DNA of 63,836 bases, the filler included, from Rhizaria sp. SCN 62-66 (Eukaryota): NCBI GenBank assembly GCA_001724265.1. It is 3 parts of 3 records of this genome, joined end to end, with 100 filler letters (N's around TTAATTAATTAA, not from the genome) between each part and the next. Parts side by side here need not be neighbours in the genome. Positions count along the whole stretch, not along the records: positions 31,020 to 53,150 come from MEDY01000440.1; positions 53,251 to 63,836 come from MEDY01000555.1; 1 more part is not named here. One strand, given 5' to 3'. Position 1 is the stretch's first letter. Every line of letters starts with the position of its first letter. A model generated the notes under the pieces. The model was not told the origin of the DNA and did no database searches. It saw nothing but the letters and a program-made list of their open reading frames with translations. The position numbers and the translations under genes are program-made. Below are positions 31,458 to 61,078 of this stretch, in pieces.

Positions 31458-34400
31458 ATGTCTAAACTCCAACGACCAATGCTCAAACGGGAGAAATTGG
31501 CGATCCTCAAGCTAAGCAAGGTCATTTCTCCTGTGACCTCTCTGTCACCTAGTATTGCCGCTCTTGAAGCGTTCGATCGTGTGCTTAGTGACACTGAAAG
31601 GGGTTACGATATCCCGGCGTTTCTTGTTAGCAGCAACTACGTTGTGCCTCTTGCGCGCCAGCTCGAGCTTTCTGTGGGAAGTGGTAATGAGGAATCTGCG
31701 CGCCGCCGTCTGATCATCAACATTTTTCGCGTCACATTCGGTTCGCACGTTTTTGACTCCGCCGTAGTGGGTCCCGCAGCTGTCTCTATTAGCACCATGC
31801 TAGCGAGCGTCAACCCGGCAACGCTTGAGTTAGATGGCCTGTCATTGCTCAACATCATAGTGTCGCATGTGGCGGACTCTGCGCATCCCACGGTCCTGGC
31901 TAACCTCGCAACCTTCGCTGCAGCTGTACGCACCTGTTCAGTCCCGCGGCCAGCCGTGTCTGAGTCACTCCTTGACGAGCCCAAGCCTATCTACCAAGCG
32001 TTTCTTGAGAAGTGCATGACAATCGCAGGCCGCCTGTGCAAGCACTCCACCACCGCGCTGCCGTTCTCCGGCGTCGCCGTGTACATCCCCGTGCTGCAAG
32101 ACGTCATCCAGCGCAAGGTTGACCGTCTGGCGCTGCCCAAAAATTAGCGGTCTGTTCCTTTGTCCCCGTTTGGTCGACCCTGGGGCCCCGTCGCGCGCTC
32201 GCAAGACCGCAACGCGGACGTCAACTCGGTCGACGGCACAGTCGTCGACAATAGCGCGCTGCTGCGCGGGGACATTCTGAACCTCGCGCGCTTTCTTGCC
32301 ATGAGCCGTGGCCACAGCAGCGCAGAGGTCCGCGCTCTGGCGCTGAGTCCCTTGTTCCGCGACTTTCTCCTGTCTCACAGCACGACCAGGCACGAGTACC
32401 TCGCCATCGTCGACGGTTGCGTGGGCGCGCTCACCGACGCCGAGCTCGCGCAGGTCTTCACCGAGGAGCGCACCGAGCAGTTCTGCAGCATCATCACGCG
32501 CATGTGCAGTGCCTACGTTGACGACGACGACCTTGCCGGCTTTGCGCGCATTATCACGCGCGTCGGCGCCTTGCGGCCCGAGCTCGTCGCGCAGCTCGTG
32601 TACCGCCACGTCCAGTCGCCCGCTCAGGTCCCGCTCCCGCCGCCGCCCCAAACCAACCAGATGATTTCGTCTGCGCCTATGCCAATGGCGTCCGCGCCTA
32701 CGCCGATGCCCACCAATCCAGACGAGCCAGTTTATCAGCTTTCCCGCCAAAGCAAAAGCATTCTGGGGTACTTCGGCAGCCTCCCCCGGTCCAACTATCT
32801 CGACTGCGAGACCGCAAAGCAAGCCTCAGACCACGTCTGTTTTTACAACTACACCATTTGCCTGCTCCCCAGCGCGCCGCTGCTGTTCGACGCACTGCTG
32901 TCGGCGGCCGCGGGCCGTGAGCGGGTGGCGACGGAACTGTATCGCGCCGACGTCTACGTCTACTGCATGGCCGTGCTTGCGCGCGCGCTCTGGCGGCCCT
33001 GCAGCGCGCCCGAACGCGCGGCCGAGCGCACCGGGTTTCTGGTCAGCGACGAGGCCATGGCCGCGCTGCTCCGTGTGGTGCGCACGCTGATCGAGGAGGC
33101 GAGTAAACTCGGCGCCAGCGCTTCACGTGTGGCTGCGAACGCGCAGACGCAGACCGCCACATCCACGGACAACAGCGCCAGTGCGGACGGCAATATTAAT
33201 AACAGCGACGGTGACACTAATAGCGGCAACGATAGTGACGATGACAAAGTACACAAGACGACTCCTGAGCGCCTCAAAATGGACTTCGCTTCGCCGCACG
33301 GCGAGTGCTTGTTGGATGCGATCCGCTACGCAACCGCGCACTTGACGGCGGACGCGCCCGCGGTGCAAGAGCTCGCACTGCTACGCGCCACAGTAGAGCG
33401 TCAGTATGGCATTGCGCCGGCGAGTGCGGAGACAGGTGATGACGCGGCGCAGAAGGCTACCGCAGAAGTGCGTGCGTTTGTCGAGAGCTCGAAGTGCAGG
33501 GGCGAAGAGGTGGCATTTAACAATTACATTTGTATCTTGACTGCAGGCAAGCCAGTGGCAGATAGCGCTGCTGCGCCGCAGCTGTCCGAGGCGGCTCTTG
33601 CCGTGCTGCAGACCAAGGCACGTGCTAGCGTCCGCCTGTGCGCAATGATAACAAATGTGTACGGCAAAGTCCTTGAAAACACCAACCACAAAAACTTAGT
33701 GATGAACATGCGACTCTACGACCAGATGAAGTCGTATTTAGAGTACAAAATGAGCATTACTGTTGATGACGCACAGTTTCCGGCACATGCCGCGCATTTC
33801 CGTCTTGCCGCACACTAGGGCACGCTTGCTCACCGTCTGCACATGTGCTTTGGTGGCGTTCAGGATGCGCCGTACGTCACGTTGCACAATCGCAGTATTG
33901 ACAACTGTGTTGCAGCGAAGCCCGAACTCCCCGCAACTGACTACGTTTATGACGAGTACGTAACGCCGGCTACGGGGGACGCAAAGACGCAAATGCACCC
34001 TGTCGGCACGGTGCTAATGTACCCACGCTATGCAGTGCCACCGCAGCGCAAGCCTGTTGCGGTATTGTATGTTGGTGCACCCGCAGTCAACGAGGGCACA
34101 TACGACACGCCGTGGTTCATCGTGTTCAAGCCGTGCCCGATGAGTCTGTTGCGCGGCGCGGTGCCCGTGGGGCGCGTGGTGTCGTGTACGCCGGGGTTTA
34201 TTGCACGTGCTGTGCGGAATGTAAAACCTGTCACTCCCAAGACCAACGAGAGTGCCACAACCACTCAGAAGAAGAGTGAGCCTGGGTGTGAGCCAAGCGC
34301 GGCAGGTGGCGCGTCGGGCCCGTTTCACAACGGCCTGCTTGAGTGGTTTGATCGCTTTTGCCGGATGAAGATGTGCAGTATGTTGAGCAAGTCCTCGATT

Positions 34401-34520
34401 ATTGCGCTTGCTGAACTTGACAGTCCGGAGAACAGGAAGGCGCGAGGAGACCTGGTGAAAGAAAACGATACGTCACTTGAGGACATCGCCCGGTTTGAAT
34501 TGTTTAGAGCACTCGGTTGA
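31458..34520 (+). CDS. Hypothetical protein (~1020 aa from ATG 31458) spanning two in-frame TAG codons (32145, 33816); possible upstream exon 31199-31257 via intron 31258-31381
   Basis: ORFs 31263-32147, 32160-33818 and 33843-34520 are all in one frame, separated only by single TAG codons. The frame ends at TGA where AT-rich DNA begins. Confidence 0.7.
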
Positions 34521-34977
34521 TCGCCCTTAGATTGTACATGTCTGAGTTAGATGCATGTCAATGTACAAGATGCAATACATGTGCTAGTTTGCATTAGTTT
34601 TTTTCGTGGCTCGCATCTTTAAGTGAATGTGAGTGGTTAAGCAGCCGTGACTGATTGACTGACACATTTTGTTATGGCGCGTAGGGGAAGCAAAGAGTGT
34701 GCATCTCTTCGACGCGAACAAAAAATCATGCTCGTCATTCATTGCGTCTGTTCCATAATACAACTTTCATTTCAGCTTAAGCTTAACAATAAGTACCATT
34801 CATTTTTGTTGTTGCAATTTTGGACGATCGCTTTTTGGAACGCCCTTTTTTTTTTTAGGGATGAGCAAAAATCTACAAGTATGATAAGTGACCCAGGATG
34901 AGATAATGACTATATGAGAAAGATAAACCGACTAAATATATGTATTAAATAATTTTGTTCGCTATATTTAAATTTAA

Positions 34978-37900
34978 TCATTCGCTATCGTCATCATCAT
35001 CGTCAAAAAGACTATTTAATGTTTTGTTGTTGCTGAGCAGAGTAAGCATCTTGAGTCCATGGATCCACACTGCCTCCGCACCACCAATACCACTGTGCTC
35101 ACAGTCGCTACGCGCACTAACGTTGTTGGAGGCTCTTGGTAATGCATTTGTCAGCTGACACTCATTCGGTGCCTGGTCGTTGCCACTTCGGTCCTGTTGT
35201 GAGACGCTAACATCGCAGGCAGGAACATTACAATCATTGCCACTTTCGCTGTCACTACTATCGCCATCGCTGTCCCAGGCGCTGCCCACGACCCTCGTCC
35301 CGGTCCCCGTCAGCACCACGGGCATCGCCACAGGGTCGAAGCGAGGGTGCAGAGCCACCGCGCCGGTTACGACGCCGGCGCATGGCCGTGAGCCGCAGTG
35401 CTGCGAGCGAGAGCAGCCGTCGTGAGCGTTGCTGTTTGCGTCTTTGTCGCGGCGATCATTCGGAACAAAGCAAAGCGGTGCTAACGAGGATAGTTTAGAC
35501 GCGTCATAACCACAATCACTGGACGAATTGCAGTGCCTTTCGCCTGTCACAGACGCACTTAGACTGTCGCACACGGGAGCATTGAGATTGGTGCTAGAGC
35601 CGAAATAGGCAGCGACCATGTCGCCGTGAGTACTGTAATTGTTGCTGTAGCTATCGTTGCTGTTGCTGTTCAAGTGGCTGTGTCCATGCTTGCCCTTCTT
35701 CCTCCCGTTGCTGCTGCTGTAGGCGCGTTGACTGAGCGCGCTCGCCTCCGAGGCCGTGTTCATCGCGGCGACATCACTCGGGCTGCTGTGTGCCGCAACA
35801 ACAGCGTCGACTCCGTCTAAGTCCCACACAAGCACGCCACCACTGCCGCCGACATCACGCGCCTGCACGCCGCTGCTAGCTGGCTGCGATTCCGACTGCG
35901 CGTCACTCGCCGTCTCCGCAGTCGCACCTCGGACGCCCGCGCTGACGCTGACGCCCGCGCTCGCGCCGGTTCCAGAGACGAGCCAGCGCCCGGTGGCGTC
36001 GACGTCGAACCCGATGCGCTGGCAGCCGTTGTGCTGCCGCGGCAGCGCGCACAGCGGTCGCCGCATCTGCCGCACGTCCCACACCTCGACCCCCTGCTGC
36101 TCACAGTTGCCCTGATCGTGACCGTGACCGTGCGTATTGCTGGTGCTCCCGCGGAGACCCGGGTAGCGGAACCCCGCGGCCAGCCGCCACGGGCCAGCCC
36201 ACTTGACCGCGGTCACGCCCCTAGCGCGCACTCGCGGGCCGACGCCGTGCCCGTCGCCACAGCCTACATCCGCACTCGCAGCGCCGTTCGCGCGCAGGCT
36301 GTTGGCGGCGCTGGCGGGCCGGTCGAAGCAGCGCAGCAGCGCGACGGCCGCGCCGACGCGGAGGTCGTACACACATACGGCGTCGCCCAGCGAGCCCGCC
36401 GCGAGCAGCACGCCGCCATCGCCGGGCCCCACGCCGCCGCCACCGGAATGAGAGTGCGGCGTGGAGCTGGAGAGGGCAAGCGCGGTGATGGCGCCGCGCT
36501 GGCCGCAGCGGCGGGAGCGCGGGGGCAGCGACGCGCGCGCCTTGCTGTCGGCGGAGTGGCCCTGGGCCGATTGGCTGTGCGAGGAGCGGGAAGGCCAGGC
36601 CGAGGGGTCGGAACTGAGAGAGGCGGGAGGCAAAGCCCATTCAACGACAATGTCACTATTTGTGGTGTTGTTGCTGTTGTTATCGTAGAATCCGCGCTTG
36701 AACTTGTTGTTGTTCTCGAGCTCGTTGTAGTAGTAATCTTCATCATCGTCACCATCACCCTCGTTACCCTCGTTGCGATTGCTGTTATTGCTGGCATAAC
36801 AACCACGTTTGCTCTTATAAAGCTCATCATCGTTATTGTTCTCGTCCTCTTCATCATCCTGGTCCTGCTCGTCTTGCGGCACCATGACGTTCCCGGGCGT
36901 GAGCGCGCGCTGCGCCCACACGCAGTCGCTGCTGCCACGGCCCGCGAAGACCGTGCGTGGCGGCCGCCACCCGGGCGCAACCCACCAGCGCCAGCACCGG
37001 TCCAGCGCGCCCGCCGAGCGGCACAGGTCGTGCAGCGTCAGCGCCCCGGGCAGCGTCAGCGTCTCGCTGGAGCTGTTACCAAGAGCGGCACTGGATGAGC
37101 TCACGTTTTCAGCAGCAGCAGAAGCGGTGTAGGCGCTCGCGTGCGGGTCCAGGTGCCCGTACTGGCCCCACCACAGCGCGAGCGCCCTCTGCGCCTCGTC
37201 GGCGCCCTGTGCGCAGTCGCGCTGCATGCGGCCCCACTGGCCCCAGCCCAGCGGCCACTGCGACGGCGCGTGGATCCCGAACGCCACCCCTGAAGTCAGG
37301 CCGCCCCCGGCCGTGGAGGAGGCGAGACTGGCCCCGACGCCGGCGCCGCAGCCGACGAGCGCGACGGCGCGCGCGCAGAGGCGCGCCCACGCCGACTCGG
37401 CCGACTCGGCGACACCGGTCACTTCGCGCGCCAGGGCACCCGCGGCGCGCACGGCGGCGCCGCTCTCGGTCAGCGTCGCCACTGTGGAGCCCGCGGCAGA
37501 CACAGCGCGGCCATGGTACGCGGACGAGTCGGCGTAGGTGGCGTGGCGCTGCGCGAGCTCTTGCGCTTGCAGCCACACTTTGTCGCGCAGCACGGTCTCC
37601 TGCAGCGTTTCCAGCACGACGACGGCGATCGCTTCCCCAGCACCGACAACAAGACGGCTGCCGTCGTGCGAGAAGGCGAGGGCGGACACTGGGGACTGCA
37701 GGTCGCCGCTGCCGCCGCCGGCGACGGCGTCGGAGATCACGTATCTACTCAGGAGAACAAAACAAAGAGCAAATATAGGATGAGTTCAGCTAGCGAGTGC
37801 ATGAGATTTGGCGATAGCGTATATCAACAAACAGATGGGTTAACTTAGATGGTAGCAGCACGTACGTCGCGCGCGGCGTGGCGGTGAAGGCGTCCCAAAG

Positions 37901-39755: not shown

Positions 39756-41984
39756 ATGTCGTCCCAGCCCCAGCCCTCGGCCCAGGCCTCCGCTGCCGCG
39801 GGCGCCGAGACCCTGGAGTTCACTGAGAGCCGTCTTGCCGCGCAGACCCTCCGCGACGCATTCATCTCTATGAACCTCATCGCCATCGCGCCCGCCGCGG
39901 CCGCGGCCCCCGCCCTCGACGCCAACGCCGCCGCCAACGCCGCTGCGGGCGCCGACGCCTGCGCCGCCCCCACCGCCCAGCCCGCCGCGGGCGAGGCCAA
40001 GAGCACCACCACTGCCGCCGACGACGTCGACGCCGACGCTGACGCCGACGCCGACACTACGGCCGCGGCCGCTTAGCCCGAACTGGAGCTGGTGTCCGTG
40101 CCTGCACCGGCGTCACTGGCCCTCATCCCGGGGCTGCGCTTGATGCCCGACACGGACAGCGACTTCGAGGACGACTACTCCGGCGATGAGGTCGAGGAGA
40201 ACGACAACGCAGACAAAGACGATGACGCGGACGACGACGAGGACGCGCCGGAGCCTGGGCTGTACACGACCGTCCAACTGGGCTACGCTGACCCGCCATC
40301 GCACGCGCTCGCGCTGCGCCGCGACTACTTCCCCTCGAAGCTGGGCGGCCGCCCCGCCTGGCTGAACCCCGCCGCGCTGCCCCCCGCCTCATCACTATGC
40401 TGCTCGGTCTGCGCGGCGCCGCTGGCGCTGCTGGCTCAGCTGTACGCGCCGCTGCCCGGCGACGCCGCGGCCTTCCACCGCGCGCTCTACCTCTTCGCGT
40501 GCCGCCGTGCGTCCTGCCTGGCCGCGGCGCCCACGGCGGCCGTGCGTGCATTCCGCTGCTCGCTGCCGCGTGAGAACCCCTTCTACGCGGCCTCGGCCCC
40601 CGTCCCGCCGCCCGCCTCGGCTCCGGCCGCCACCGTCGGCCGCGACAGCGCCGGCCGCGCCGTCAGCACCACCGCAAAGACGTCAGCTGCCGCTAGTACT
40701 GGCGCTGCTGCTGCTGCTGGTGCGACTGAGCTGCCGGCGCACCTGCCGGTGGACGTGCTACCCTTCGCGGGCTCCCCCACCTGCCCTGTCTGCGCCCTCC
40801 CCACCGCCCACGCCACCGCCACTGCCACCGCGGCGGTCACTGATGACGGTGAGCAGGGCGCGCTGTCGCCGGTGTCGCCGATTACGCCCTCGCTGACCGA
40901 GGCCACCGCGCCCATTGCCGTCGCCGCTGCCAATGCAAGCGCTGTTTCTACAGGCGACGCGTCGTACTGCTGCCCGGCGCACCGGGCTGTGGACGCTGCG
41001 GCCGCGGTGACGGGCAGCGCGATCACCACGGCCGCGTTCACCGCGCGCGCGCTGGCGCGCGAGCTGGCCGTGCTGCCCGCGTTCGAGGTCAACACCGAGG
41101 AGGAGTGTCTGCCGACGTACAAGCAGCAAGTCGCGCTGTCGACGGCCAAGGGACACCTCGCGGGGGCCAAGGCCGCCGAGCTCGCCTCCGCTGACAGCAA
41201 GGGCAAGAAGGATGGCGAGGCTAAGGGCGCGGGCGCTGCCAAGAACAGCGACAAGGTGGGCGCGAAGCTGAGCTCGATGGTGGGCGAGTACGAGGCCGCG
41301 CGCGCCAAGATGACTGAGGAGGAGCGTTTCGTGACGGACCGCGTGTTCCTCGACGAGGGCTCCACGAATCCCAAGCCCAGCAGCGGAAGCAAGGACGACA
41401 AGGACGGCAAGGAGGGCAAGATTACGGGCAAGGACAGCAAGCTGGACGCGGAGCTGGAGGCGTCGATCGCGGGCGAGATTAGCGCGCGCGACGCGCTGCT
41501 GCAGGCCAAGAAGGACCGCTCCGACGCCGTGCACGTGGCCTTCAGCGCCCGCGTCGAGTGCAACCCCGAGCAGTGTCTGCGCTATGTGCCACACCACAAG
41601 CGCGTTCAGGCGGTCCACACGGCCGAGATGACCGGCGCGAGCGGCACCACTTCCGCGCGGCCCGTGTGGGTGGGCAAGCGGCGCCGCGTCGCGCATGCGC
41701 CCGACTGCGAGCGCTGCGGCGGCGCGCGCGACGTCGAGTTCCAGGTCATGCCTCAGGTGCTCTACTTCCTCGAGACCGAGGCGCGCAAGACGCTCGAGCG
41801 CGCGCACAAGCACCGGGTCAAGATCCACAAGGACGCCGTCAACGGCGTGCTGCGCGAGGAGGACGCGCTTGACTTTGGCACAATCGTTGTCTACACGTGC
41901 AGGAACAACTGCACGGGTGCCGCCGCCGACGAGAAGATGGGCTACGTCCAGGAGTTTGCTTACGCACAGCCTCCGCAGACGTAA
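39756..41984 (+). CDS. PDCD2: PDCD2/TSR4-family protein (~742 aa) with an in-frame TAG at 40074-40076
   Basis: Motifs FPSKLGGRPAWL, C..C..PL.LL.QLYAPL, FHRALYLFAC, LPRENPFY, PEQCLRY, C..CG..R..EFQVMPQ.L, DFGTIVVYTC and QEF. The ORF from ATG 39756 continues in frame through the TAG. A later start downstream of the TAG cannot be excluded. TAA stop. Confidence 0.88.
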
Positions 41985-48900: not shown

Positions 48901-51900
48901 AGTCTGAACAGCGCTGTGCCTGCTGTGAGCGTTGTTACCAAGACCAAGGCCGAGCCCGAAGCCGACGATTCCGCTGTTGCTCTGCGGCACACCCTCGGGG
49001 ACCGAGCCGCGGCTGCCGTTGACAGCGCCGTTCGTAGGGCGCCCGTCAGTAGCGAGCCGCGCCGGGCTTGCCGCCGCGCTGCCGGCGCCATCGCGCATGC
49101 GCGCGCCCAGCACAGGCGAATCGCAGTCCTCGGGGCACGCGGCCGTCGGCTCGGCGCCCACGGCGCCCGCGTGGGCCACGTTGACTCGAGCCGCGGCGCC
49201 GTTGTTATCGGCGACGACGAGGCCGAGGTCGGCGATGGCGTTGCCGTCGAGGTTGCTCGAGGCGTCGACCCAGGACGGCGGCACCACGCTGCCGCTGTAC
49301 AGTTGCCGCGCGCTCTCACGTCTCGCGTCGAAGGCGGCAGCGGCGGCGGTGGCAGTAGCCGCGGCGGCAGTAGCAGGGACAGCGTGTCTGGCGCGGTCGC
49401 CGCCGGGCGCCGCCATCGGTGTCGCGACGGCGGTCGCGGCGTGGATGTCGTAGAGCGCCATGGACTGCACCAGCGCCAGCGCCGCGGCGCGCGCGCCCGT
49501 CGCCGTCACCACGTCCAGTACTTCGAGCCCCTGCACGCGCGCCTGCACGCGCATCGGCACGCCATGCGGAGCCTGCGAGACACTTGGGACCTGAGAGGCC
49601 TGTGAAGCGTTAGCAGGGTCCGCAGGCGCGGCATCGCTGCTGTCGTTGTTGGGGGGTTCGGCGCAGGCGGCTGTAGCCGAGAGAATCGTGATGGTGCGCG
49701 GGAACGGAAGGTAGGCCGCATGCGCCGCGCGCGGGGTGAGCACAAGCGACGCTCTGGCGGCGTTCACTGCATCTCTGCCCGCCTGGCTCCGCTGACGGCC
49801 CGAGCTGTGCTCGCCACCCTGCGCCGCCACTGGCGCCACTGGGACCATAGGCGCCACCGGCGGCACTGACACGAGCCCTTGGTGCGAGAAGACGCGGCCG
49901 GGCACCGTGTACTGCAGCGGCAGCGGGCGCGCGAGCGACTGCGCGAGCGACGACGTCAACTCCGACGGCTGCGGTGACCGCAGCAGCAGCGATGACGGGC
50001 TCGAGGCCGCGCCACGTGCTTCCGCAGCGGCGGCGATGGACGCGGTCGTCAGCGGGCGGTACTGCTGCTGCGGCTGCTGCTGCACCGACTGCAACGGCTG
50101 CAACGGCTCAGGCTGCTGCGGCTGGGCGTTCACGTTGGGGAACTCGCCTAAGTCGCCAGCGATGCTGCCGCCGAGCCCGCCGGCCGTGTGCCTGCGGCTG
50201 CCAGCGGCGCGCGTGGTGGCGGCCGAGAGCGGGCGGCGCGGGAAGGCGCGCGGCACAGGCGGCTGCAGCGGCATCAGCATCACGTCGTCGCCGTCTCTTT
50301 CGCTATTCACTGACGCCGCAACGCCGCCGCGGCCGGTGTAGCCCGCCATGCCGCTGCCGCTGCCGCTGCCGCTGCCAGCCACAGCCGTAGTCGCACCGGT
50401 GTTGACGCGAGGTTCCGCGAGGCTAGAGCCAATGCTGCCGATGATGCTGTTGCTGGCCACGCTATTGCGGGACTGTGCCGTCTGCGTCCGCATCGGCGTC
50501 TGCGCCTGCGTCTGTGTCCGGGGGGGCGGCAGCGTGGCCGCCAAGGCCGCGTCGGAGCTGGACATCGCCGCACCGCCGCTGACTGCGCCGAGCACCTTGG
50601 ACGTAGAGCCTGCCACCGACTCGATGCAGTCGCACTCGGAGTCGGAGCCGGAGCCGGAGCCCGAGTCCTCGTCGTCGCGCTCGTCGCCGAGGCGGTGGCT
50701 GCGGCTCCGGCTCCGGCTGTGGCTGCGGCTGCGGGTCTGGCTCTGGTTGCCGCCACCGTTGCCGTTGCCGATGCCGTTGCTGCCGCGGCTGCGACCGCCG
50801 CGGCAGCGGTTGCGGCTGCTCTGGCCGAGGTTGCTGCCGCTGCCGAGGTGCGCGCCATCGCAGCAGGAGTGATCGCTCTCAGCGTTGCTGTGCGTGTTGC
50901 TGTGCGCGGCGGGCGCGGCGCCGCAGCAGCCGAGCGCCGTGCTGCCGCCCACACTCACGCTGCTGCCGCTGCCGCTGTTGCTGCTGCTGCTGCTCATGTT
51001 GCTGCTTGCGGCGACATGTGCGTTTGTAGCGTTGGCGCTGGCGCTGGCGGCGCGCGCGGCCGCCGCGGTTGCGCTGAAGCTCACTGTGGGTCGGACGCTG
51101 GCACGGCTGAATGCACCGGGATTGACCGTGAGTACCGAGCTGCCGAAGCCGCTGCAGGAGGCCGTATCGGTGTTCTTAGCGACGGCACCATTGTCGAGGG
51201 CATTGTTCGCGCTGCACGCCCTGCTGTCGTCGCTGGTGTCGCCGGTGTTGTTGTGGCTACGGCTGTGGGTGAGGCTGTGAACCAGACTGTGATGACTGTG
51301 GGCGAGTCTGGGGGCGTGGTCGCGCGCCAGGTGCGCGCTGTGGCTCAGGTCGCTGAGTCTACTGCTGCTGTTGTTGCTGTTGCTGTTGCTGTTGCTGCTT
51401 GCGAGCGGAGGGTTGTCATTGCTGAACGCAGGCGTGTGACCGTGAGGACTGGAGTGACCGTGGGTGCCAGAGTGACTGTGGGCAGCGGCCGCCTGCGTCG
51501 ACGCAACGACCGACGCCGAGGCCGAGGCCGCGGACACGGGCAAGGCCAGCGACGACGATGACGACGACGACGTGGCCGAGGCGATCGAGGCGACGGAGAC
51601 GCGCTGCATGCCGTGCTGCTGCTGGTGGTGCTGCTGGTGCTGCCGCTGCTGCTGGTGCTGCTGATCTTGCTGCTGGTGCTGCTGTTGGTAGTGGTGCAGC
51701 GACCACGGCCGCGTCGTCGCCGTCAAGCAAGAGTGACTGTGTGCCGCTGAGCGACCGTGCGCAGAGTGGCGGTGACCGTGGGCGGTGTGGCTGTGACCGT
51801 GGGCCGCGTGGTGCTGCACGTGGTGCAGCGGCATCGGCATCGGCGCCGACAGCGTGGCCGTCGTTGCCGTCGCTGTCGGAGCAGCGGCCGCTGCACTGGC

Positions 51901-52413
51901 GCTGGCGCTGGCGGCGCTGACGCTGGCAGCGTAGGCCGGCGCAGAAGCGGTGAGCGCGTCCGGCACGGGCGACCCAGTGAAGGAGAACGAGTGCGGCAGC
52001 ACCGCGCTTGCAGGCGACGCGGCGGGCGACATAGTGTGCGCATGCACGCTGCCGCCAAGGTTATATGCAGTGTTGGTGCCGCTGTGGCCGTGCGCGTGGT
52101 GCGAGAGCGCGAGACCCAGCACCGGCGTCTGCGTCCGCGTCGCCAGGCTCCGGACCCGCGAGCGCGGCGCCAGCGGCACGAACGCGGTGCCGGCGCCCGC
52201 GGCCAGCGAGGAGTCCGCCAGCGCAAGCGGCGCGGGGCTGGCCGCGGCCGGGGGCGCGTCGGCGGCGGGCGCGGGCGCCGGGGACGCGGCGGCCGAGGTG
52301 GGACGGGATGACACGTAGGCCCCCGTTGCATTGATGCGGTGGCGCATGACTACGGGCAGGATATCATCCAAGCCATGCGGCGCCCGTGTAAAAGGCACGT
52401 CCACGTCGGACAT
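45910..52413 (-). CDS. Hypothetical ~2167-aa low-complexity protein (His/Ser/Ala/Gln-rich, Cys clusters) with an in-frame TAG at 46533-46531
   Basis: ORFs 52413-46531 and 46515-45910 share a frame (...GGIPEH*HRPRLMCERH...). Coding-like composition continues to the TGA at 45912-45910. Confidence 0.7.
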
Positions 52414-53002
52414 ATCGTCGCGGACAGCGGATGAGCGCTATGGAGGACCCGACATAATAGTGTTGGAAGCCCACTCCTTTGGGGTCGGGTGACGCAAGGA
52501 GTGCAAACTTTTAACAAGCGAGTTTTGGCGGTTAACTGGGTGAGCGCAAAGTTATAAATAAAATTTGAGTAATAAATATATTGACAAAACCATTACTTGT
52601 ACGTATATGCACTTTAACGGAGGACATTAGTGAAATAATTAAGAGAATGCAAATCTAAAAGGTCCGATGCAAACAGGTTCTTCGACGAGATGGCCTGCTG
52701 GCCAAAAACTGACCGACAAGTCAACTGGCTTTCGTTCGTGAGTGCAACGCGTATATACGGACTTACGGGAGCGAGATAGTCGTACAAAGAGATAAATGGA
52801 TCGGGGGAGTTATAGAATTTGAATGTTTTGTGTATGCAAAGAGTAAGATGAGGGATGTTTGCCAGGTGAAACAAACGCGAGGGCGAGATGAGGGTGTAGT
52901 AGAGACGACGAACGAACAGAGAACAAGAGCACTCCCGTTCAATACAAACTTGGAGGTTATATCAAGCGGACGTGCTCGTTGTAGTTGTTGCTGTTAACGC
53001 AT

Positions 53003-53149: not shown

Positions 53150-53150
53150 A

Positions 53151-53911: not shown

Positions 53912-56900
53912 ATGTCCATTTCCCGGGCACGCGCTGCGTCGGCCCCGAATCCACCCCCGGACGCCGCCTCGTTGGAGGGGGTTTCTCATGGTGAGCCACA
54001 GGTTGCCGAATTCCCCGATAATGACAACGCCGGCGCCCCAGCCGCACACACACGTGCTCGCTCACAGGTTCAGGGGCAAGCGACCGGTGGTATCTCTGAC
54101 GGACAAGTGCCTGGGGAGTACGCAGGGCAATAGCAGGGTGTCCCTGTGCATCCGAGCTCATCGACCAATGTGCGGCGGCCCTCGTCTTCGCTGGGATACA
54201 CGGGTTCACGCAGGCTGCAGTCAGCAACCAATGCTGCGGTCCACACCAGCAACGCGACACCTGTGGCGGGCATGAATGCCGTTGGCGCTGACCAACACCA
54301 CCATATCCAACAGCAGCATAACCACAATCAACACGCACTTGCGCAGCAGCCCACTGCTGTTTCCGCAGGCACCGTTCGCACAGCTGCTCCTGGGGGAGCT
54401 GCCGCTCCCAATCTAGCACGCCTCCGCACGAAGCCTGGTCCTGGAGCTGCTGGCGCGGTTCCTGGTCCCATTACTGTTCTTGCCGCTCCGACCCACGGTG
54501 GTGCGGGCTCCGGCGCTGTCCCGGGGCCGTCGTTGCAGTCTCCCACCCAGTCCGTTTCGCAGCCGCCGTCGCAGCCACTGTCTCGCTCGCACTCCCAAGC
54601 GTTGCTGCAACCGCAGTCTCCGCCGAACTCTGCGTCGACGCCCACCACAGCGACCGCTGCAGCCGCAGTTGCTGTAAGCAATATCAACAACCGCAGCCTC
54701 GGACAGGGCCAGGGCCTGGGCCAGGGCCAGACTCAGGGCTATGGCAGCGCCAGTGTCGGGCTCCCGTCCGCTGTGCCGCGTCTGTCCTCGTCTTCGTCGT
54801 CCGTGGCGTCGTCCTTCGTCGCGGGGTCCGGAATTATTAACGTTGTCAACAGTAACAATCTGGGCCCGGCCATCAATCCCCACGCCACCCGTGGCGGCGG
54901 CGTAGCGCTTGCCTCGCGCCGCCAAGCTGACGGCATGGCCGCGCTCCCGGGCTCGGCGCCTACGTCGCTGAGCGCGCTGCCTGGCGCCGTTGCGAGCAGC
55001 GCGCAGCAAGGCGTCGGGTCTGCAACCGGTTTCGTTGCCCACGGCCCCGGACCGGCGCCCACGGTCACCCCACCAGTCTACAGCAACTCCAACACGAACA
55101 ACAATAGTAACAGCCATAACAACAACATCAGCGCTTCTCTCCCACCTGCCGCCCTCGCCGCACAGATGCTGGCGTCCGCCATTGCAAACTCCCACGCAGG
55201 TCACCCCGAGGACGTCCACTTTGCGGCGGCCTCGGCGGCGGACTTGTACGCGGCCTCCGCCGCCGCCGCCGCTGCTACCGCTGCTGCTGCTGCTGCTGCT
55301 GCGGCTTCTGCTCTCCCCGTTGGGACCAGCAACGCAAGCAGTGGCAGCGGCCGCGCCTCCTCGGCCGTCGCCGCCGCCGTTCCGCCCGCGCTGTCGCGCA
55401 CGCCGACGCACGCGCCCTCGCCCGTCCTGGCCTCCGGCGCGAGCACGAGCAGCACCAGCGCTGGCGCCGGCCCTGTCGTCGCCGTGGGCGCGATCGCCGG
55501 TCCCGGCGGCGACAGTGCTAGCGGGCGCGGGAGCCTCGCGCCCTCGTTTGCCGCGCTGTCTCTCGACGCCGTGCTCTTGTCCTCAGCCCAGCCCCACGCG
55601 CGCGGCCACGGCGCCGTCAGCGGCCACGGTGCCGTCAGCGGCCTAGGTGTCGTCGGCGGCGGTGGCGCTGCTGACGGGACCTACGGGGCCAGCGGCGGCG
55701 GCGGCGGCGGCCCCTTGGCGAGCGTGAGGCCCGCGTCGTCGCCGCACGCCGCGCGCAGCCTCACTTTTTCAGCCCCGACGGCCAACGCGCACGGGTCGGG
55801 GTTAGTGCCGATGCCCCTGTCTGTCTCGCCCAACCCCGTCGCTGTGACGGGTTTCTCTGGGGCGAGGCTCGGCGCCGGAACCCCGGCCGCTAATTCTCCG
55901 ACTGGGCTCGTGCCTGCTCCCGTATTTCTGCCTCCTTCTGCGTTCGCGACAGGTCCTTGCGCCAGTTCTGGCACTGGCACTGGCACTGGCAGTGGTGCAG
56001 TGGACACGTCTTTGCGCATTGGTAGCGGGCTCCGCGCCAACAACGGAAACCACAGCAACAGCAACGGCAACCACTTCATCAAGACTCTGCCGGCCGCAGC
56101 CACGGTGCATCACTCCCCCTCCGCGTCCACCTCCTCGCTTCCCCTCCCCGGCGCCGGCGCTGCCGCCGGTCCGGCTGCGGCCTCACTGACTCGGCCCGCC
56201 GTGTCGGCCGGGAGCTCGAGCCTCACTCCGTGCGCTGGCGCGGGTGCAGGTGCGGCAGACCGACTGCGCAAGCAGCGCTCGAGCACTCTGCCGAAGCAGT
56301 GCCCGTCCCTGCGGCCGCCGGGCCTGGGCATCGATGGCGACGCCGGTGAAGGCGTCCACGACATCAACAACGACATTAATGACAGCGTCGACTTTGCTGA
56401 CTCCAACGACAACGTCAGCGGAGACCCTGCCGGGAGCACTCCGACTGGTGGTGACAGTGGCCTTGTTGCGGGCGCGGGCGCTGGCATTCCGGTGTCGGGT
56501 GCCGCCACGGGCCCTGAAGCCGGGATTGTTCCGGGGACTGATCCTGCGTCCCGCCTTTTCACGGTGTCTACAATGCTCGCCAGCCGCCGCCGCACGCGCT
56601 TCATCGACGTGGACTTGCAGACGAACGTTTACGTCGCGCTCGGCCACGCGAACAGCAATTCGAACAGCAACGGTGACGCGCATCCGCGCGGCTCCCCCGC
56701 CATCGGTACCGACGTTGCCGCTAATGCGGCCGGCACGTTTGGGCCTGTCTCCCATTCGGGCTCGCTGTACGGCTCTGAAGTGTCCTCGCGCACGATGACT
56801 TCGTCGGCATACCAATTTGCTTCGCAGCATGGCGAGACTAATATCGAAGGAGTGGGTAACTTCGACTCTGGTGGCCGTCTGGACGCAATGTACCCTCAAA

Positions 56901-57933
56901 TGAACCCCTTTGCGTCTGATGCGGGTGCTACAGGCGCGACAGGGGGAGCTACATATGTGTCGCAGCAGTCTAGCTCCAACGACAGTGGGAACGACCCAAA
57001 TAACGTCGGACGCATGTCTTCAGGTGCCATGCTAGTGCCGGTGCCCGCGGGTGAGCTTGGAGATGCTGGAGTCGGCGCTGGAGTGGTTTATTCGACTCGC
57101 CTTGTGTCATTAGCCGGCGACGGAACTGCTACGAGAGCTGAGGACGAAGACATTGATGAAGACGAAGACATTGATGAAGACGATGACGTTGATGAGGACG
57201 AAGACATTGATGAGGACGAAGACATTGATGAAGACGAAGACCTCGTGAACATCAACTTTATTGACGTCGATGACTGTGGCGACCCCGGCTGCGGCGGCGG
57301 TCTTGGCGACGCTTGCAACCACCACACCGCCAACGCCACGGACCAGTACATGCAGTTGTCTAATTTCTATCCGGCGGACCCCGCCGCTGTCTCCTTTGGA
57401 CAAGCTGGCCCGCCTGCGTCAGCGGCAGCGTCTCAGCCCGGGCTTCCCGTGCCTCCTCTCAACTTTAACGCGATTAGCAGTGCGCCTGCTGCTCCTTCTG
57501 CCTCAGCCGCTGCTGCTTCTGCTGCTGCTGCCAACGCTGCTGCTGCAGTCGCTGCGCTCGGACCTGTGTCAGGGTATCCCAGCAACGGCAACCTCGGCAA
57601 CTACAGTGGTCGTGAGAACGGGAACGCGCCCCAGACCCCGATCCCCCACCGCCACCATGGCGCGCCGATTGGTGCGAGCGGTTTCGTTAGTAGTAATAGT
57701 GGCCGCGGATTCAGCTCAGCGTTTTCGGCTTCCCCGGCGACCCAGCGCGCGCGCGCGACCGCGCAGACGCCCGGCTCGACCGTCACGACCCCCGTGGGGG
57801 GCGTCCTCGGCAACGGCCTGGCGGCCAACGGCGGGGGGGCGACGCCGCGCACGCCGGACCAACATCAGCTGCATCAACTGCACCAACAACACCCTCAACA
57901 CTTTCAGCAGCAACAGCAGCATAATCAGCAACA

Positions 57934-58009
<76 letters not shown>

Positions 58010-60586
58010 CTGCCGTTCCTCGCTGCCACCGCGAGCGCTAGCGACCACTACCACTACCCGGGAGGCCAACACCCCGTTTCCGGCAGCGTTGCGACCAACA
58101 ACAACCCTTACGGCGTCTATGCAGCTGGTGGCGTGAGTGGTTCTGGAGCCAGGCCCTTCGAGAGGATAATGCGGACTAATACGACACATTCGAACGCCTC
58201 TCACGCGTCCACGATTCCGTTTGCGGTTCCCGCGAACGGCTACGTCACCATCTTCGCTCCGCCGTCGCCCCATGTGCGCCAGGTGCCGGGGCCGGCCCCC
58301 CAGGGCGCCGTCGTCCCAGTGGCCGCGACGGCGACCTCGGGTGTAGGGCAGCTGTCGCTGTCGCGGCAGGCGTCGGACACCACGCCGCGCGGTGTGCAGC
58401 AGCACTCACAGAAGAGCGCATTTTCGCCTAAGCAACAGCCGCAGACGCCCAAGCAGAACACGTCTGGCCAGCACCCCGTGTTCCAGTTTCCGTCCCCGGG
58501 CCCTGGGCACCAGTTGCCGACTGCTGCCGCGGCTTCGTCGCCGCCTGTCCAGGCCGCGGCCTCGATGCTGCGGAGCCCTTACTCGCAGTCCCCGTCGCAT
58601 TCGCAGCGCCAGCAGTCGGACTCCACCACTCCTAGGACCGCCGCTTCGGGCGCAGTCGCGATCCCAGCCGTTGTCGTGCAATCGCACTGCGCAGGCGCGA
58701 ACTGTCTCTTAAAGGTGACCGTGGGGAACACGACAGTCACTATTGATATCCCGTACCCCGGCGCGGACGCCGCTGCTGCCGCGGCGTGGACCTCCGCAAT
58801 CACAGCTACCACCGAGATCGCGACGCCCCGTGGCGCTGTGAGTGCCGCCCCTCGAAGCATTGCTGGCCCCCCGGAGAGTGCTCAGCATGTGACACCGCCG
58901 TCTCAGGTGCCTCGGGCCCTCACCCCGTACCAACTCTCGAGTGGCAACACTTCTGGCAACGGCCACAACAACTCGAGCGCGTCGCCTCTGACCGCGGCCG
59001 CTGCCTCGGCTGCTGCCAATGCCACCGCTGTTGCCGCAGCTGCCGTTCGCGCACAGGGCTTTCACCGGCCCATCCCCATGTCCCCCGCGCCCTCGGGCCA
59101 CCTGGCTCAGCCAAACGGGATGCCGACAACGCCGAACTCCGCCCGCTCGCCGGCGGTCCCTACCGCGACGACGCCCCTGAGTTACTACCATCAGCAACTG
59201 CAACAGCAACAGCAGCAACAAGGACAAGGACTGTGGCAACGTCCGTCGCCAGCGGCTGCGGCTCCCGTTGTGCCATCCATCAGCTATTACCAACAAGCTC
59301 TCGGCATGTCTTCGGGGCCCTCGCCCGCGCCGTCGCCACCGGCGCTGACGGCCGCCACCTCGGTATCCACGACGGGCCCGCCGTACGCCGCTGTGCCGGT
59401 GCCTGTCGCTGGTGCTGGCCGTGGCGTGGGCCTGGGTCTGGCGCCTGTGACAGTGCCTCAGCATCAGCATCAGCATCAGCAGAGCCAGCAGCAGTCCCAA
59501 CAGCTCCAGCAGCAGCAGTACCAACAGCTCCAGCATCAGCAGTACCTCCAACAACAACAGCAGTACCAGCATCAGCAGCAGTACCAGCAGCAACTCCAGC
59601 AGCAGTATCACCCGCAACAGCTTCAACATCAGCCTCAACAGCAGTTGCAGCAGCAGTGTTCTCAGCAGCTCGGAGGCCAGTCGCCGCAAATCGGGACGGC
59701 GCAGCCCCACTCTACGCAAAGCACGCCGACAGAGGGTAACGGGTTTCACACGCCTATGTGCGCGCCACAGGCGTCGCCACCGCTGCCGCCGCAGCAGCCG
59801 CCGCCGCCGCCGCAGCACCTGCCGCCACAGCATCAGATGAGCTCTGGCGTGGCTGTGGCGCCCCCCACGCTGCTCGCGTCCTCCTCGCGGTCCACGGGCT
59901 TGGTGCACCACAACGTTGCCAACAGCAGCAACAACAACAACGTCGGTAGCTTGAACAGTAGTTATGTTAACGTTAACGGCACCGCAAGCCCGAACGTCAC
60001 GCCTGGCACTGGCTCCATTGCTGCGAACGTCATGCCCGGTGCGGGTCCTGTGTTTGTGTATGGAATGCCAAGCCCGTGGCTCAACGAAAGGACTCCCAAT
60101 GTGGCTGGTCAGGGCACTTATAACGCTTCCGGCACGTCTACGAACCCTCACTCTTCCAGCCTCAATCCCGCCAACAGCAACGTGGGTGTTTCCGCAATGA
60201 GCGCGTTTGTTCCTGCTCCTGCGGCTGGTGTTTTGTCTCCAAGCCAACACTTCTTACTTCACACAAGTCAGCAGCAGCGACAACCTCAGCATCAGCAACA
60301 GCAGCAGCAACCTCATCATCAGCAGCAACAGCAGCAACAACAACAGCAGCAATATTTGCTTTCGCAGTCGACGCCGCAGCAGTCTCAAGCGCAGGCTTAC
60401 GCACAGGCGCAGGCTTACGCACAGGCGCAGGCGCAGGCACACGCACAGGTACAGGCTAGGTTGTCCCAGCAACAACAGCAACACAAGCAACAACAATACT
60501 CCCAACAAGCTAACCAATATCAGCTTCAGCAGCAACATCACCAGCAGCAGCAGCAGCAACATCACCAGCAGCAGCAGCAGCAACAT

Positions 60587-60627
<41 letters not shown>

Positions 60628-61078
60628 TCACCAGCAGCAGCAGCACCAGTTGCACCGGCGCTCCGCGTCGGCGGCCAGCGCCTCAAGCTCTGAGGCCGCG
60701 ACTGTTGTTTCGTCTACAACGGTTCCCACTACCTCTGCTACTGTGGTAGGTGTCACTGAGTTCACGATGTACCACTAGTACGTCAAAGATGCGCTGGACA
60801 CGGGAGCTAGAGCTGTCGACGCTGCGAACGCCCAGCTGCCTGCAGGGGCGAACACTGCGGGTCCTTCGGGTGCTGCAGCTGGCGCCGCCGCCGCCGCCGA
60901 CGCTGAATCTGAATCGCCTGTCGATACGGACGCTGGTGGTAGTGCTGGAAACGCTGCTGCGGCTGCTAATACTTCCGCTGCGGGTGCCGACAATGCTAAC
61001 GCCAACGGCGGCGCCGGCACGAAGAGTGGGCGCCCGCGCCGTGGCTCCAAAAACGGAAAGAAGAGCGCCCGCAAGTAA
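53912..61078 (+). CDS. Hypothetical ~2388-aa disordered polyQ/Ala/Ser/Gly-rich protein with in-frame TAGs at 54131 and 60776 and a basic C-terminus
   Basis: ORF 53912-54133, ORF 54146-60778 and 60779-61078 are one frame. The part after the second TAG reads YVKDALDTGARAVDAANAQLPAG...KSGRPRRGSKNGKKSARK then TAA. Confidence 0.75.
57138..57241 (+). repeat. 18-bp coding tandem repeat encoding (DEDEDI)n
   Basis: Repeated gacattgatga(a/g)gacgaa units. Confidence 0.85.
57938..58006 (+). repeat. Uninterrupted (CAG)23 polyglutamine tract
   Basis: Direct count of CAG units, in frame. Confidence 0.9.

What the first reader, a model, noticed from the sequence alone, without database searches (positions are those of the whole stretch)
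31458..61078. Apparent variant nuclear genetic code: UAG is a sense codon while UAA/UGA remain stops
Seen in sequence: six TAG codons sit in frame inside four long reading frames, and each frame continues with unchanged codon and amino-acid style. They are 32145 (LPKN*RSVP), 33816 (LAAH*GTLA), 40074 (AAAA*PELEL), 46533-46531 minus (IPEH*HRPR), 54131 (YAGQ*QGVP) and 60776 (TMYH*YVKD). No in-frame TAA or TGA interrupts any gene model. All 14 apparent gene ends, which mostly coincide with the shift to AT-richer DNA, use TAA (9) or TGA (5), never TAG. Random nonsense mutations or C>T errors should also produce TAA and TGA. Established knowledge: uncoupling UAG from UAA in nuclear codes is very rare (UAG=Leu in a sainouroid rhizarian, UAG=Gln in the fornicate Iotanema, and a few ciliates). 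Inference: this protist reads UAG as an amino acid. Contexts such as IPEH-x, LPKN-x-R and AAA-x-PEL read naturally as Leu, while Q-x-Q favours Gln. None of the six sites lies in a domain I recognise, so the amino acid cannot be fixed here. Contig 1 has no in-frame TAG, so the codon is rare.
Basis: partly seen in the sequence, partly recalled or inferred. Interest (0 to 1): 0.95.

Follow-up and report, generated by a model that had tools for sequence, protein, structure and literature searches.

The report
TAG read as a sense codon
An uncultured wastewater protist very probably translates the stop codon TAG as an amino acid while still ending its genes at TAA and TGA, a rare kind of genetic-code change.

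Summary
The window is three contigs of one GC-rich, intron-bearing eukaryote from wastewater and bioreactor metagenomes.

The decisive new result concerns gene A (31458-34520). It belongs to a family of roughly 900-aa proteins known only from metagenomes. One BLASTP alignment to a 904-aa relative (E 5e-109) runs straight across both of its TAGs. TAG 33816 sits, without a gap, in the most conserved domain, which a model folds confidently around it.

At five of the six sites the same frame keeps a significant coding signal beyond the TAG. Composition drops to AT-rich DNA only at the next TAA or TGA. Site 54131 is unresolved.

The 12 gene models hold 15,578 codons with 6 TAG, 0 TAA and 0 TGA in frame. 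None of 13 gene ends uses TAG (8 TAA, 5 TGA). Independent DNA assemblies carry four of the TAGs unchanged.

Caveats:
- TAG is very rare (0.4 per 1000 codons).
- It is absent from contig 1 and tends to lie near gene ends.
- No tRNA(CUA), eRF1 or whole genome could be examined.

The amino acid is open. Weak hints favour Gln or another polar residue, not Leu. Verdict: a probable new member of the known UAG-only reassignments, with the organism unplaced.

The parts
31458..34520 (+). Gene A, 1020 codons, ends TGA. It belongs to an unnamed family of about 900-aa proteins known only from metagenomes. It holds two in-frame TAGs.
   Evidence: 72 homologues at E<=1e-3. One BLASTP HSP, query 12-995 against residues 5-900 of P0008, E 5e-109. 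Its own frame is the best of six along its length.
32145..32147 (+). In-frame TAG, codon 230 of gene A, in a variable linker between conserved blocks.
   Evidence: The flanking segments score z 6.1 and 12.3 in the same frame. An independent contig (X4 record 17, 31116-32322) carries it with 0 differences.
33816..33818 (+). In-frame TAG, codon 787 of gene A, inside the conserved block FPxHAAHFRxAA-x-x-xLGxxxHxCF.
   Evidence: It aligns gap-free with 44 homologues. It is residue 98 of a domain model, where the 10-residue block has mean pLDDT 90, with a helix before it and strands on both sides. It is present in X3 record 9, X4 record 18 and L001.
39756..41984 (+). Gene D, PDCD2_C-domain protein, ends TAA. 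The model shown starts at the upstream ATG 39756.
   Evidence: Pfam PF04194, E 1.3e-23. The coding-like signal and the GC rise begin near 39700.
40074..40076 (+). In-frame TAG, codon 107 of the long model of gene D, 22 codons upstream of the next in-frame ATG (40143).
   Evidence: The 106 codons upstream score z 8.8 in frame, but one antisense frame scores higher and P(open by chance) is 0.35. X3 record 12 (39138-40621) carries it.
45910..52413 (-). Gene F, 2167 codons, low-complexity orphan, ends TGA at 45910-45912.
   Evidence: The protein database holds only the 1960-aa form cut at the TAG.
46531..46533 (-). In-frame TAG, codon 1961 of gene F, followed by 206 more coding-like codons.
   Evidence: The extension has GC 0.76, z 8.1, and its own frame is the best of six. 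GC falls to 0.43 only after the TGA. X3 record 15 (46497-47329) carries it.
53912..61078 (+). Gene G, 2388 codons, Q/A/S-rich orphan, ends TAA at 61076-61078.
54131..54133 (+). In-frame TAG, codon 74 of the long model of gene G. Unresolved: it may be coding or 5' UTR (next in-frame ATG at 54272).
   Evidence: The coding signal on both sides is not significant, z 1.6 and 1.5.
60776..60778 (+). In-frame TAG, codon 2289 of gene G, followed by 99 coding-like codons that contain no Met.
   Evidence: The extension scores z 5.2 and its own frame is the best of six. GC falls from 0.66 to 0.39 after the TAA. Translation.
52438..52440 (-). Seventh candidate TAG, between an upstream ATG (52455-52457) and the ATG at 52413 of gene F. 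Undecided.
   Evidence: It sits at the GC transition.
37745..37865 (-). Control: a 121-nt GTACGT...TAG intron joining ORFs C and B into one gene. It holds the TAG at 37790, so that TAG is not a gene end.
   Evidence: The sequence is. The phase-2 splice joins the two frames (my reading).

Best explanation
This eukaryote no longer uses UAG as a terminator. It translates UAG as an amino acid and keeps UAA and UGA as stops. UAG is a very rare sense codon here (about 0.4 per 1000 codons) and sits mostly at weakly constrained positions. That is the pattern expected soon after a stop codon has been lost as a terminator and recaptured.

Shown:
- The reading frames pass through the TAGs.
- One TAG lies inside a conserved folded domain.
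- No TAG is found at a gene end.

Inferred, not shown:
- Decoding by a tRNA with anticodon CUA, together with a release factor eRF1 that discriminates against UAG. This is the mechanism proposed for the known UAG-only codes (PMC5304391, passages read).
- The amino acid, for which Gln or another polar residue is weakly favoured.
For: (1) Gene A is one gene.
- phmmer against 1.84 billion representatives gave 72 hits.
- The window's own product appears there as three pieces cut exactly at the TAGs (P0007 1-229, P0005 235-786, P0006 796-1020).
- A single BLASTP HSP to the 904-aa P0008 covers query 12-995, E 5e-109.

(2) TAG 33816 aligns as exactly one residue within a conserved block in 44 of 44 homologues.
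- The part downstream of it is the best-conserved part of the family.
- The window's copy shares all 20 invariant columns of an 18-sequence alignment of that part.

(3) An AlphaFold model of residues 690-935 has pLDDT 76.8 and pTM 0.79. It places the TAG residue between helix 86-96 and later strands of one domain, with local pLDDT about 90.

(4) The coding signal continues in the same frame past 5 of 6 TAGs, z 5.2-12.3 against -0.0 to 1.5 for real flanks. DNA after a TAG has GC 0.57-0.76. DNA after TAA/TGA has GC 0.36-0.45.

(5) There are 0 TAA and 0 TGA in frame in 15,578 codons, and no frameshifts.

(6) 0 of 13 gene ends are TAG.

(7) TAGs 32145, 33816, 40074 and 46531 are bridged with 0 differences by contigs of runs from two other studies.
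Against: - Only six codons, one of them (54131) not shown to be coding.
- Contig 1 has 0 TAG in 7,843 codons against 6 in 7,735 on contigs 2 and 3 (one-sided 0.5^6 = 0.016, my arithmetic).
- Four of the six lie within about 210 codons of an ORF end. Two of those (40074, 54131) have an in-frame ATG shortly downstream, so they could be 5' UTR under the standard code.
- TAG is about 30 times rarer than positional base composition predicts (1.1% expected).
- No tRNA with a CUA anticodon lies in the window. No eRF1, no peptide evidence and no whole genome were available.
- The one alignable site falls in a variable column, so no consistent amino acid can be shown.
- Relatives of genes F and D that could test the other sites were not found.
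Confidence: 0.75

Rival explanations
1. UAG is still a stop codon in this organism, but it is read through efficiently at particular sites by near-cognate tRNAs (programmed or context-dependent read-through, or a dual-meaning codon). Genes A, F and G would then make extended products without any reassignment.
For: - TAG is extremely rare and lies mostly near ORF ends.
- 4 of 6 TAGs are followed by C, which I recall as a weak termination context.
- One site reads CAA TAG CAG, resembling the tobamovirus-type read-through motif (the motif is recalled).
- 3 of 6 are preceded by CAC.
Against: - 0 of 13 gene ends use TAG. A functioning stop would be expected at some of them.
- Gene A needs two read-through events to make its most conserved domain.
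- There is no shared extended motif among the six sites.
Confidence: 0.12
2. The code is standard. The TAGs are recent nonsense alleles in tolerant places (C-terminal tails of F and G, N-terminal extensions of D and G), and gene A is a fresh pseudogene. Alternatively, some of them are simply true stops or UTR positions.
For: - With this codon usage, 66% of random nonsense mutations give TAG, so six of six has P about 0.08.
- Most sites are near ORF ends.
- In-frame ATGs follow 40074, 54131, 46531 and 33816 within 6 to 47 codons.
- Contig 1 has none.
Against: - It needs five or six nonsense changes in 4 of 12 genes with no frameshift and no TAA/TGA.
- The 790 codons after the first TAG of gene A stay open and conserved. 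P(open by chance) is 1.3e-7 and 1.2e-4 for the two segments, and the invariant family residues are kept.
- The extensions of F and G keep a frame-specific codon bias and end exactly at the GC drop.
- The TAGs are identical in assemblies from other studies and years.
- The G extension has no Met, so it cannot be a separate ORF.
Confidence: 0.08
3. The TAGs are removed or changed at the RNA level, either by short in-frame or unconventional introns or by U-to-C editing, so the mRNA has no UAG.
For: - The organism has spliceosomal introns, and one of them does hide a TAG (37745-37865).
- GT[AG]NG motifs occur upstream of some sites.
Against: - The three introns seen are 121 to about 220 nt, AT- or pyrimidine-rich and start GTACG. 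The TAG surroundings are GC-rich with coding periodicity.
- For 32145, none of the six [CT]AG sites found within 240 nt downstream gives an in-frame intron when paired with the one GT[AG]NG (GTACG-like) motif found in the 240 nt upstream (my arithmetic).
- At 33816 the homologue alignment leaves exactly one residue and no gap.
- A contig of a polyA RNA library that covers 46554, at least 61 letters from either end, shows no change at 46531-46533. This is inferred from table 3, and such contigs can stem from DNA.
Confidence: 0.04
4. Sequencing or assembly error produced the TAGs.
For: None found.
Against: - Four sites are bridged without differences by contigs of runs X3 and X4, which come from other studies.
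- L001 is identical over 32263-35093.
Confidence: 0.01

Closest known systems
Rhizarian 'exLh' (Sainouroidea): UAG = Leu, UAA/UGA stops (Panek et al. 2017, PMC5304391; passages read)
   Same: Only UAG occurs in frame. True gene ends are exclusively UAA or UGA (56 and 15 in that paper; 8 and 5 here). It is a non-ciliate protist.
   Different: There, 384 in-frame UAG in 71 genes fall at conserved Leu positions. Here there are 6 in 15,578 codons. The one alignable site has Leu in 1 of 44 homologues. exLh is known from transcripts only, whereas this is genomic DNA with GC3 near 0.85-0.9. Kinship with this organism was not tested.
Iotanema spirale (Fornicata): UAG = Gln (PMC5304391; passages read)
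   Same: UAG only, and possibly the same amino acid. Weak hints here point to Gln or a polar residue.
   Different: In Iotanema the Gln assignment was established by likelihood over many conserved sites. Here it is not established. Kinship was not tested.
Phyllopharyngean ciliates: UAG = Leu (three TARA MAGs) or Gln (Hartmannula sinica, Trochilia petrani) (McGowan et al. 2024, PMC11687900; abstract and section 10 read)
   Same: UAG alone is reassigned, and the cases were discovered in metagenome-assembled genomes. Stops shift to UAA and UGA.
   Different: In those ciliates 78-91% of genes hold an internal UAG, UAA is 92-98% of stops, and suppressor tRNAs were found. Here 4 of 12 gene models hold a TAG, TGA is 5 of 13 stops, and no tRNA is at hand. 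The multi-gene contigs of more than 20 kb, the GC-rich coding and the 120-220-nt introns do not look ciliate-like (my judgement).
Oligohymenophorean ciliate with UAA and UAG coding for different amino acids (PMC10553269; search listing and start of abstract only)
   Same: UAA and UAG are uncoupled.
   Different: There, both UAA and UAG are sense codons (per the title). Here UAA is the commonest stop.
Codes with all three stops as sense codons (Condylostoma, Blastocrithidia, Amoebophrya sp. ex K. veneficum: PMC4967479, PMC12153298, PMC6394959; listings, and passages of the last)
   Same: In-frame standard stop codons are translated.
   Different: No TAA or TGA is in frame in 15,578 codons here.

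Membership tests
UAG-only stop-to-sense nuclear code (UAA and UGA remain stops) | In-frame UAG inside coding sequence that is colinear with homologues | tested here: met
   Gene A: one HSP across both TAGs, E 5e-109. TAG 33816 is gap-free in a conserved block of 44 homologues. The other four sites rest on coding statistics only.
UAG-only stop-to-sense nuclear code (UAA and UGA remain stops) | UAG absent from true gene ends; UAA and UGA used instead | tested here: met
   13 ends: TAA 8, TGA 5, TAG 0. The sample is small. Gene A's end lies about 20 residues beyond the C-terminus of relative P0008, and gene D's PDCD2_C match ends 4 residues before its stop. No end was checked against orthologues' own stop codons.
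UAG-only stop-to-sense nuclear code (UAA and UGA remain stops) | No in-frame UAA or UGA | tested here: met
   0 of each in 12 gene models, 15,578 codons.
UAG-only stop-to-sense nuclear code (UAA and UGA remain stops) | UAG aligns to one consistent amino acid at conserved positions | tested here: inconclusive
   There is only one alignable site, and its column is variable: S9 N6 R4 T4 A4 Q4 G3 K3 and others, L1 of 44. A neighbour-based score favours Q (0.77), but that depends on the Q-x-Q site.
UAG-only stop-to-sense nuclear code (UAA and UGA remain stops) | Cognate tRNA with anticodon CUA | not testable with these tools
   None in the window, no Rfam tRNA hit, and no whole genome is held.
UAG-only stop-to-sense nuclear code (UAA and UGA remain stops) | eRF1 altered in stop-codon recognition | not testable with these tools
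   eRF1 is not in the window, and there is no genome.
UAG-only stop-to-sense nuclear code (UAA and UGA remain stops) | UAG kept in mature mRNA and translated (cDNA, peptides) | tested here: inconclusive
   One polyA-library contig appears to keep TAG 46531 (inferred). The runs are stored as contigs only. No proteomics.
Programmed stop-codon read-through at otherwise functional UAG stops | UAG also serves as the ordinary terminator of other genes | tested here: not met
   0 of 13 gene ends are TAG. Small sample.
Programmed stop-codon read-through at otherwise functional UAG stops | Shared stimulatory context around the stop | tested here: inconclusive
   The +4 base is C at 4 of 6 sites, and CAC or CAA precedes at 4 of 6. 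There is no common downstream hexamer.
Codes with no dedicated stop (all three stops also sense) | In-frame UAA and UGA as well as UAG | tested here: not met
   0 TAA and 0 TGA in frame.

The most novel reading that the evidence does not exclude
An unsequenced, flagellum-bearing protist lineage, common in wastewater reactors and known only from metagenomes, is at an early stage of a UAG stop-to-sense reassignment, most likely to Gln. UAG has vanished from gene ends and has only begun to reappear inside genes. It would be an independent origin of the UAG-only code in a GC-rich genome, and a natural snapshot of a code change in progress.
Probability: 0.35. Interest if true: 0.8.

Novelty: new member of a known kind. 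Interest (0 to 1): 0.65.

Why it matters
Nuclear codes that uncouple UAG from UAA are known from only a handful of lineages (PMC5304391, PMC11687900). Each new one tests ideas on how a stop codon is lost and recaptured.

This case would differ from the described ones in two ways. The genome is GC-rich, and the reassigned codon is still very rare. That is the stage which theories of codon capture or ambiguous intermediates predict but which is seldom seen.

There is also a practical consequence. Gene callers using standard codes cut this organism's proteins at TAG. The public protein collections already hold gene A in three pieces and genes D and F truncated. Annotation of eukaryotic bins from wastewater would therefore be systematically wrong for this lineage.

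Tried and rejected
- No whole genome is held, so codon-meaning inference, a tRNA(CUA) search and an eRF1 search were impossible.
- Gene A against proteins of similar length found nothing. The exhaustive search found the family.
- The C-terminal region of gene F found only the window's own truncated 1960-aa product.
- Gene D found only its own 628-aa product and one weak hit. Low-complexity words probably swamped both of these searches.
- The metagenome-contig scan with gene A found only L001, which is identical to the window. No diverged relative's DNA could be obtained.
- Scans of genome contigs and viral contigs with the family alignment found none.
- Rfam found no family. ARAGORN gave only a 92-nt 'tRNA-Val' inside the gene F extension, which I take as false.
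- Earlier findings of this scan hold nothing on this genome or its look-alikes. The word hits concern other genomes.
- ESM Atlas gave no usable taxonomy or family.
- Taxonomic placement failed. All 20 relatives looked up come from metagenome sources without organism names.
- Read laying:
  - All runs are stored as contigs.
  - The eight RNA-library pieces listed for X6 do not bridge a TAG.
  - No clean GT..AG joint was listed.
  - Transcript ends could not be seen.
  - Low or zero RNA depth over intergenic bins, and the small-share runs X5-X10, were not used as evidence.
- My impressions that the + strand gene at 42689-43908 is cyclin-like and that the contig-2-end fragment is ribosomal protein eS6 found no support. 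I dropped them.
- The fold of the gene A C-terminal domain gave only weak cyclophilin-like hits, best E 0.042 and none at or below 0.001. This is a lead only.
- Supplementary tables of the cited papers were not seen.
Full report
**What the window is.** The 63,836 bases are three contigs (1-30919, 31020-53150, 53251-63836) joined by N44-TTAATTAATTAA-N44 spacers. No whole genome is held.

The DNA is nuclear DNA of a eukaryote.
- Coding regions are GC-rich (GC3 about 0.8-0.95) and are separated by AT-rich spacers.
- There are spliceosomal introns of 121 to about 220 nt that begin GTACG.
- There is a ribosomal protein uL2 fragment (Pfam E 3.4e-4, below the curated cut-off).
- Other genes are a prolyl oligopeptidase, a PX-domain protein, a WD-repeat/coiled-coil protein and a PDCD2_C protein. 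I read the WD-repeat protein as flagellar CFAP57-like; that name is my recollection, since Pfam shows only WD/EML propellers.

Near-identical DNA occurs in bioreactor, wastewater and activated-sludge metagenomes of several studies from 2015 to 2025. I could not place the organism.

**The observation.** All six TAGs are in frame where stated. In 12 gene models (15,578 codons) I count 6 TAG, 0 TAA and 0 TGA in frame (a 13th, mis-framed small ORF is dropped).

- 46531 and 60776 would be the stops of ORFs of 1960 and 2210 codons.
- 40074 and 54131 lie upstream of later in-frame ATGs.
- 32145 and 33816 would cut gene A into ORFs of 294, 552 and 225 codons.

The question was therefore whether the sequence beyond each TAG is really coding.

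**Coding statistics.** I trained a codon model on 8,743 codons of confident ORF cores, six of the seven on contig 1 or away from the TAGs. The gene's own frame stays the best of six across the TAGs of A, D, F and the 3' TAG of G.

| Segment | z against shuffles |
|---|---|
| Gene A, ATG to first TAG | 6.1 |
| Gene A, between the TAGs | 12.3 |
| Gene A, second TAG to TGA | 5.3 |
| Gene D, 106 codons before its TAG | 8.8 |
| Gene F, 206 codons after its TAG | 8.1 |
| Gene G, 99 codons after its 3' TAG | 5.2 |
| Five true flanks (four after TAA/TGA, one upstream of gene D's start) | -0.0 to 1.5 |

- DNA following a TAG has GC 0.57-0.76. DNA following a TAA or TGA has GC 0.36-0.45.
- The chance that the outer gene A segments stay open by composition alone is 3.8e-4 and 1.2e-4.

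Results against, or neutral:
- The two segments around 54131 are not significant (z 1.6, 1.5).
- For the gene D segment an antisense frame scores higher (53.9 against 42.5), and its chance of being open is 0.35.
- For the F and G extensions the chance of being open is 0.075 and 0.078.

**Homology, the decisive test.** A word-based search of gene A against proteins of similar length found nothing. The exhaustive phmmer search of 1.84 billion representatives found 72 proteins at E<=1e-3, 13 of them at E<=1e-30.
- The three best hits are the window's own product, cut at the TAGs by a standard-code gene caller: residues 1-229, 235-786 and 796-1020.
- The next hit, P0008 (904 aa), aligns in one BLASTP HSP from query residue 12 to 995, E 5e-109. 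It crosses both TAGs, so gene A is a single gene.
- TAG 32145 falls in a gappy, variable linker.
- TAG 33816 falls inside the block FP(S/C)(H/N)AAHFRxAA-x-x-xLG-xxxH-x-CF and aligns as exactly one residue, with no gap, in 44 of 44 homologues.
- The region downstream of it is the part of the protein that most hits cover.
- The window's copy keeps all 20 invariant columns of an 18-sequence alignment of that part.

An AlphaFold model of residues 690-935, built on 45 sequences, has mean pLDDT 76.8 and pTM 0.79.
- The TAG residue (98 of the model) lies just after helix 86-96, in a block with mean pLDDT 90.
- Strands of the same domain lie on both sides.

Termination at this TAG would remove more than half of the domain.

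**Gene ends.** I could define 13 ends.
- TAA, 8 ends: the oligopeptidase, the 3533-codon gene, the PX gene, D, G, a small ORF ending at 5861, the + strand gene ending at 43908, and the fragment at the end of contig 2.
- TGA, 5 ends: the 1448-codon gene, the WD gene, A, C/B and F.
- TAG, none.

The apparent TAG end of ORF C (37790) lies in a 121-nt GTACGT...TAG intron (37745-37865) that joins C and B in phase (my reading). Three ends (A, F, G) presuppose read-through, and three belong to only probable genes.

If TAG made up a quarter of stops, which is an assumption, 0 of 13 would have P = 0.024 and 0 of the 10 independent ends P = 0.056 (my arithmetic).

**Are the TAGs real?** Contigs of runs from two other studies bridge four of the sites with no differences.

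| Site | Bridging contig |
|---|---|
| 32145 | X4 record 17 |
| 33816 | X3 record 9, X4 record 18 |
| 40074 | X3 record 12 |
| 46531 | X3 record 15 |

L001 is identical to 32263-35093, but it may be the same source. Runs X4 and X6 carry a G>A variant at 46554, seven codons upstream of TAG 46531. Neither lists a change at the TAG itself. X6 is a polyA RNA library (an inference from table 3).

**Rivals.**
With this codon usage 66% of them give TAG, so six of six has P about 0.08. That argument alone is weak. But the rival needs five or six nonsense changes in 4 of 12 genes, no frameshift, a conserved 790-codon frame kept open after the first TAG of gene A, and preserved family invariants.
- *Introns or editing.* Introns do not fit the GC-rich, periodic surroundings. 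Neither fits the gap-free alignment at 33816.
- *Site-specific read-through of a still-functional stop.* This remains the most serious alternative. It is helped by the rarity of TAG, by the C after 4 of 6 TAGs and by CAC or CAA before 4 of 6. It is weakened by the absence of TAG terminators.

**Points against the main reading.**
- Contig 1 has no TAG in 7,843 codons, against six in 7,735 on the other two contigs (P 0.016 one-sided).
- The TAGs cluster near ORF ends.
- TAG is about 30 times rarer than positional composition predicts.

I read these three as signs of a young or poorly decoded sense codon that is tolerated mainly at weakly constrained positions. They are equally what makes the sample small.

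**Which amino acid?** This is not settled.
- The column aligned to TAG 33816 is variable: S9, N6, R4, T4, A4, Q4, G3, K3, and E, I, P, L, V, D, H once each, of 44.
- The two closest homologues (49% identity each) have Glu and Gln.
- The only two homologues with His before the site, as here, both have Gln.
- A naive neighbour-residue score over the six sites gives Gln 0.77 and His 0.17. It loses its preference when the Q-x-Q site is dropped.

**Comparison with known cases.** UAG-only reassignments with UAA and UGA kept as stops are described for:
- the rhizarian exLh (Leu) and Iotanema spirale (Gln) (PMC5304391, passages read);
- several phyllopharyngean ciliates (Leu or Gln) (PMC11687900, abstract and section 10 read).

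In all of those, UAG is a common codon: 384 in 71 genes in exLh, and 78-91% of genes with an internal UAG in the ciliates. Here it is rare, the genome is GC-rich, and TGA makes up 5 of 13 stops.

Two full-text searches found no paper on such a code in a wastewater eukaryote. That shows only that these searches found none.

**Verdict.** The reading 'UAG is translated, UAA and UGA terminate' is the best explanation (about 0.75). It would be a new member of a known kind of code variant in an unplaced lineage. The mechanism (tRNA-CUA, eRF1) and the amino acid are inferred, not shown.

Noticed in passing
window 34978-39364 (-), intron 37745-37865: ORFs C and B are one gene joined by a 121-nt phase-2 intron (GTACGT...GAGTAG) that contains two TAGs. 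A standard-code ORF list makes ORF C look as if it ends at TAG.
   Followed up: partly
window 28206-28415 (-); 30539-30767 (+), approximate: Two further introns start GTACG and end CAG: a 210-nt one in the WD-repeat (CFAP57-like) gene and one of about 220 nt after the first 19 nt of the uL2 gene. The organism has few but canonical introns.
   Followed up: partly
window 31458-34520; proteins P0008-P0076: Gene A defines an unnamed protein family (72 hits), seen in metagenome sources only for the 20 hits looked up. It has an ARM/HEAT-like N-terminal part (Atlas lead only) and a conserved C-terminal domain of about 230 aa. The best fold matches of that domain are all weak cyclophilin hits (E 0.04-0.4, TM 0.26-0.45).
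   Followed up: partly
window 52438-52440 (-): A seventh in-frame TAG lies between an upstream ATG (52455-52457) and the ATG at 52413 of gene F. If TAG is sense, the protein may start 15 codons earlier.
   Followed up: no
the six TAG sites: CAC (His) precedes the TAG at 3 of 6 sites and CAA at one. C follows at 4 of 6. It may reflect an origin from CAC-CAG (His-Gln) dipeptides or a decoding context.
   Followed up: partly
window 46291-46382 (+): ARAGORN calls a 92-nt tRNA-Val (anticodon GAC) inside the coding-like extension of gene F, on the opposite strand. Rfam finds no tRNA there, so it is probably a false call.
   Followed up: partly
window 34167; 34584; 34846: Both RNA-library runs have a contig that leaves the window sequence after 34167 with the same 29 letters. 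Run X4 has a 14-nt insertion behind 34584 and a 1-nt deletion at 34846, both in the AT-rich spacer after gene A. These are strain differences or a junction and are unexplained.
   Followed up: no
window 42689-43908 (+): A + strand gene with a probable intron near 43575-43665 ends at TAA. The long minus-strand ORF over it (42617-43582, 'ending' at TAG) is its antisense shadow. No Pfam family.
   Followed up: partly
window 9335-19936 (-) and 697-5064 (+): Uninterrupted ORFs of 3533 and 1455 codons have no Pfam family. Like F and G they are rich in Ala/Ser/Gln/His low-complexity runs.
   Followed up: no
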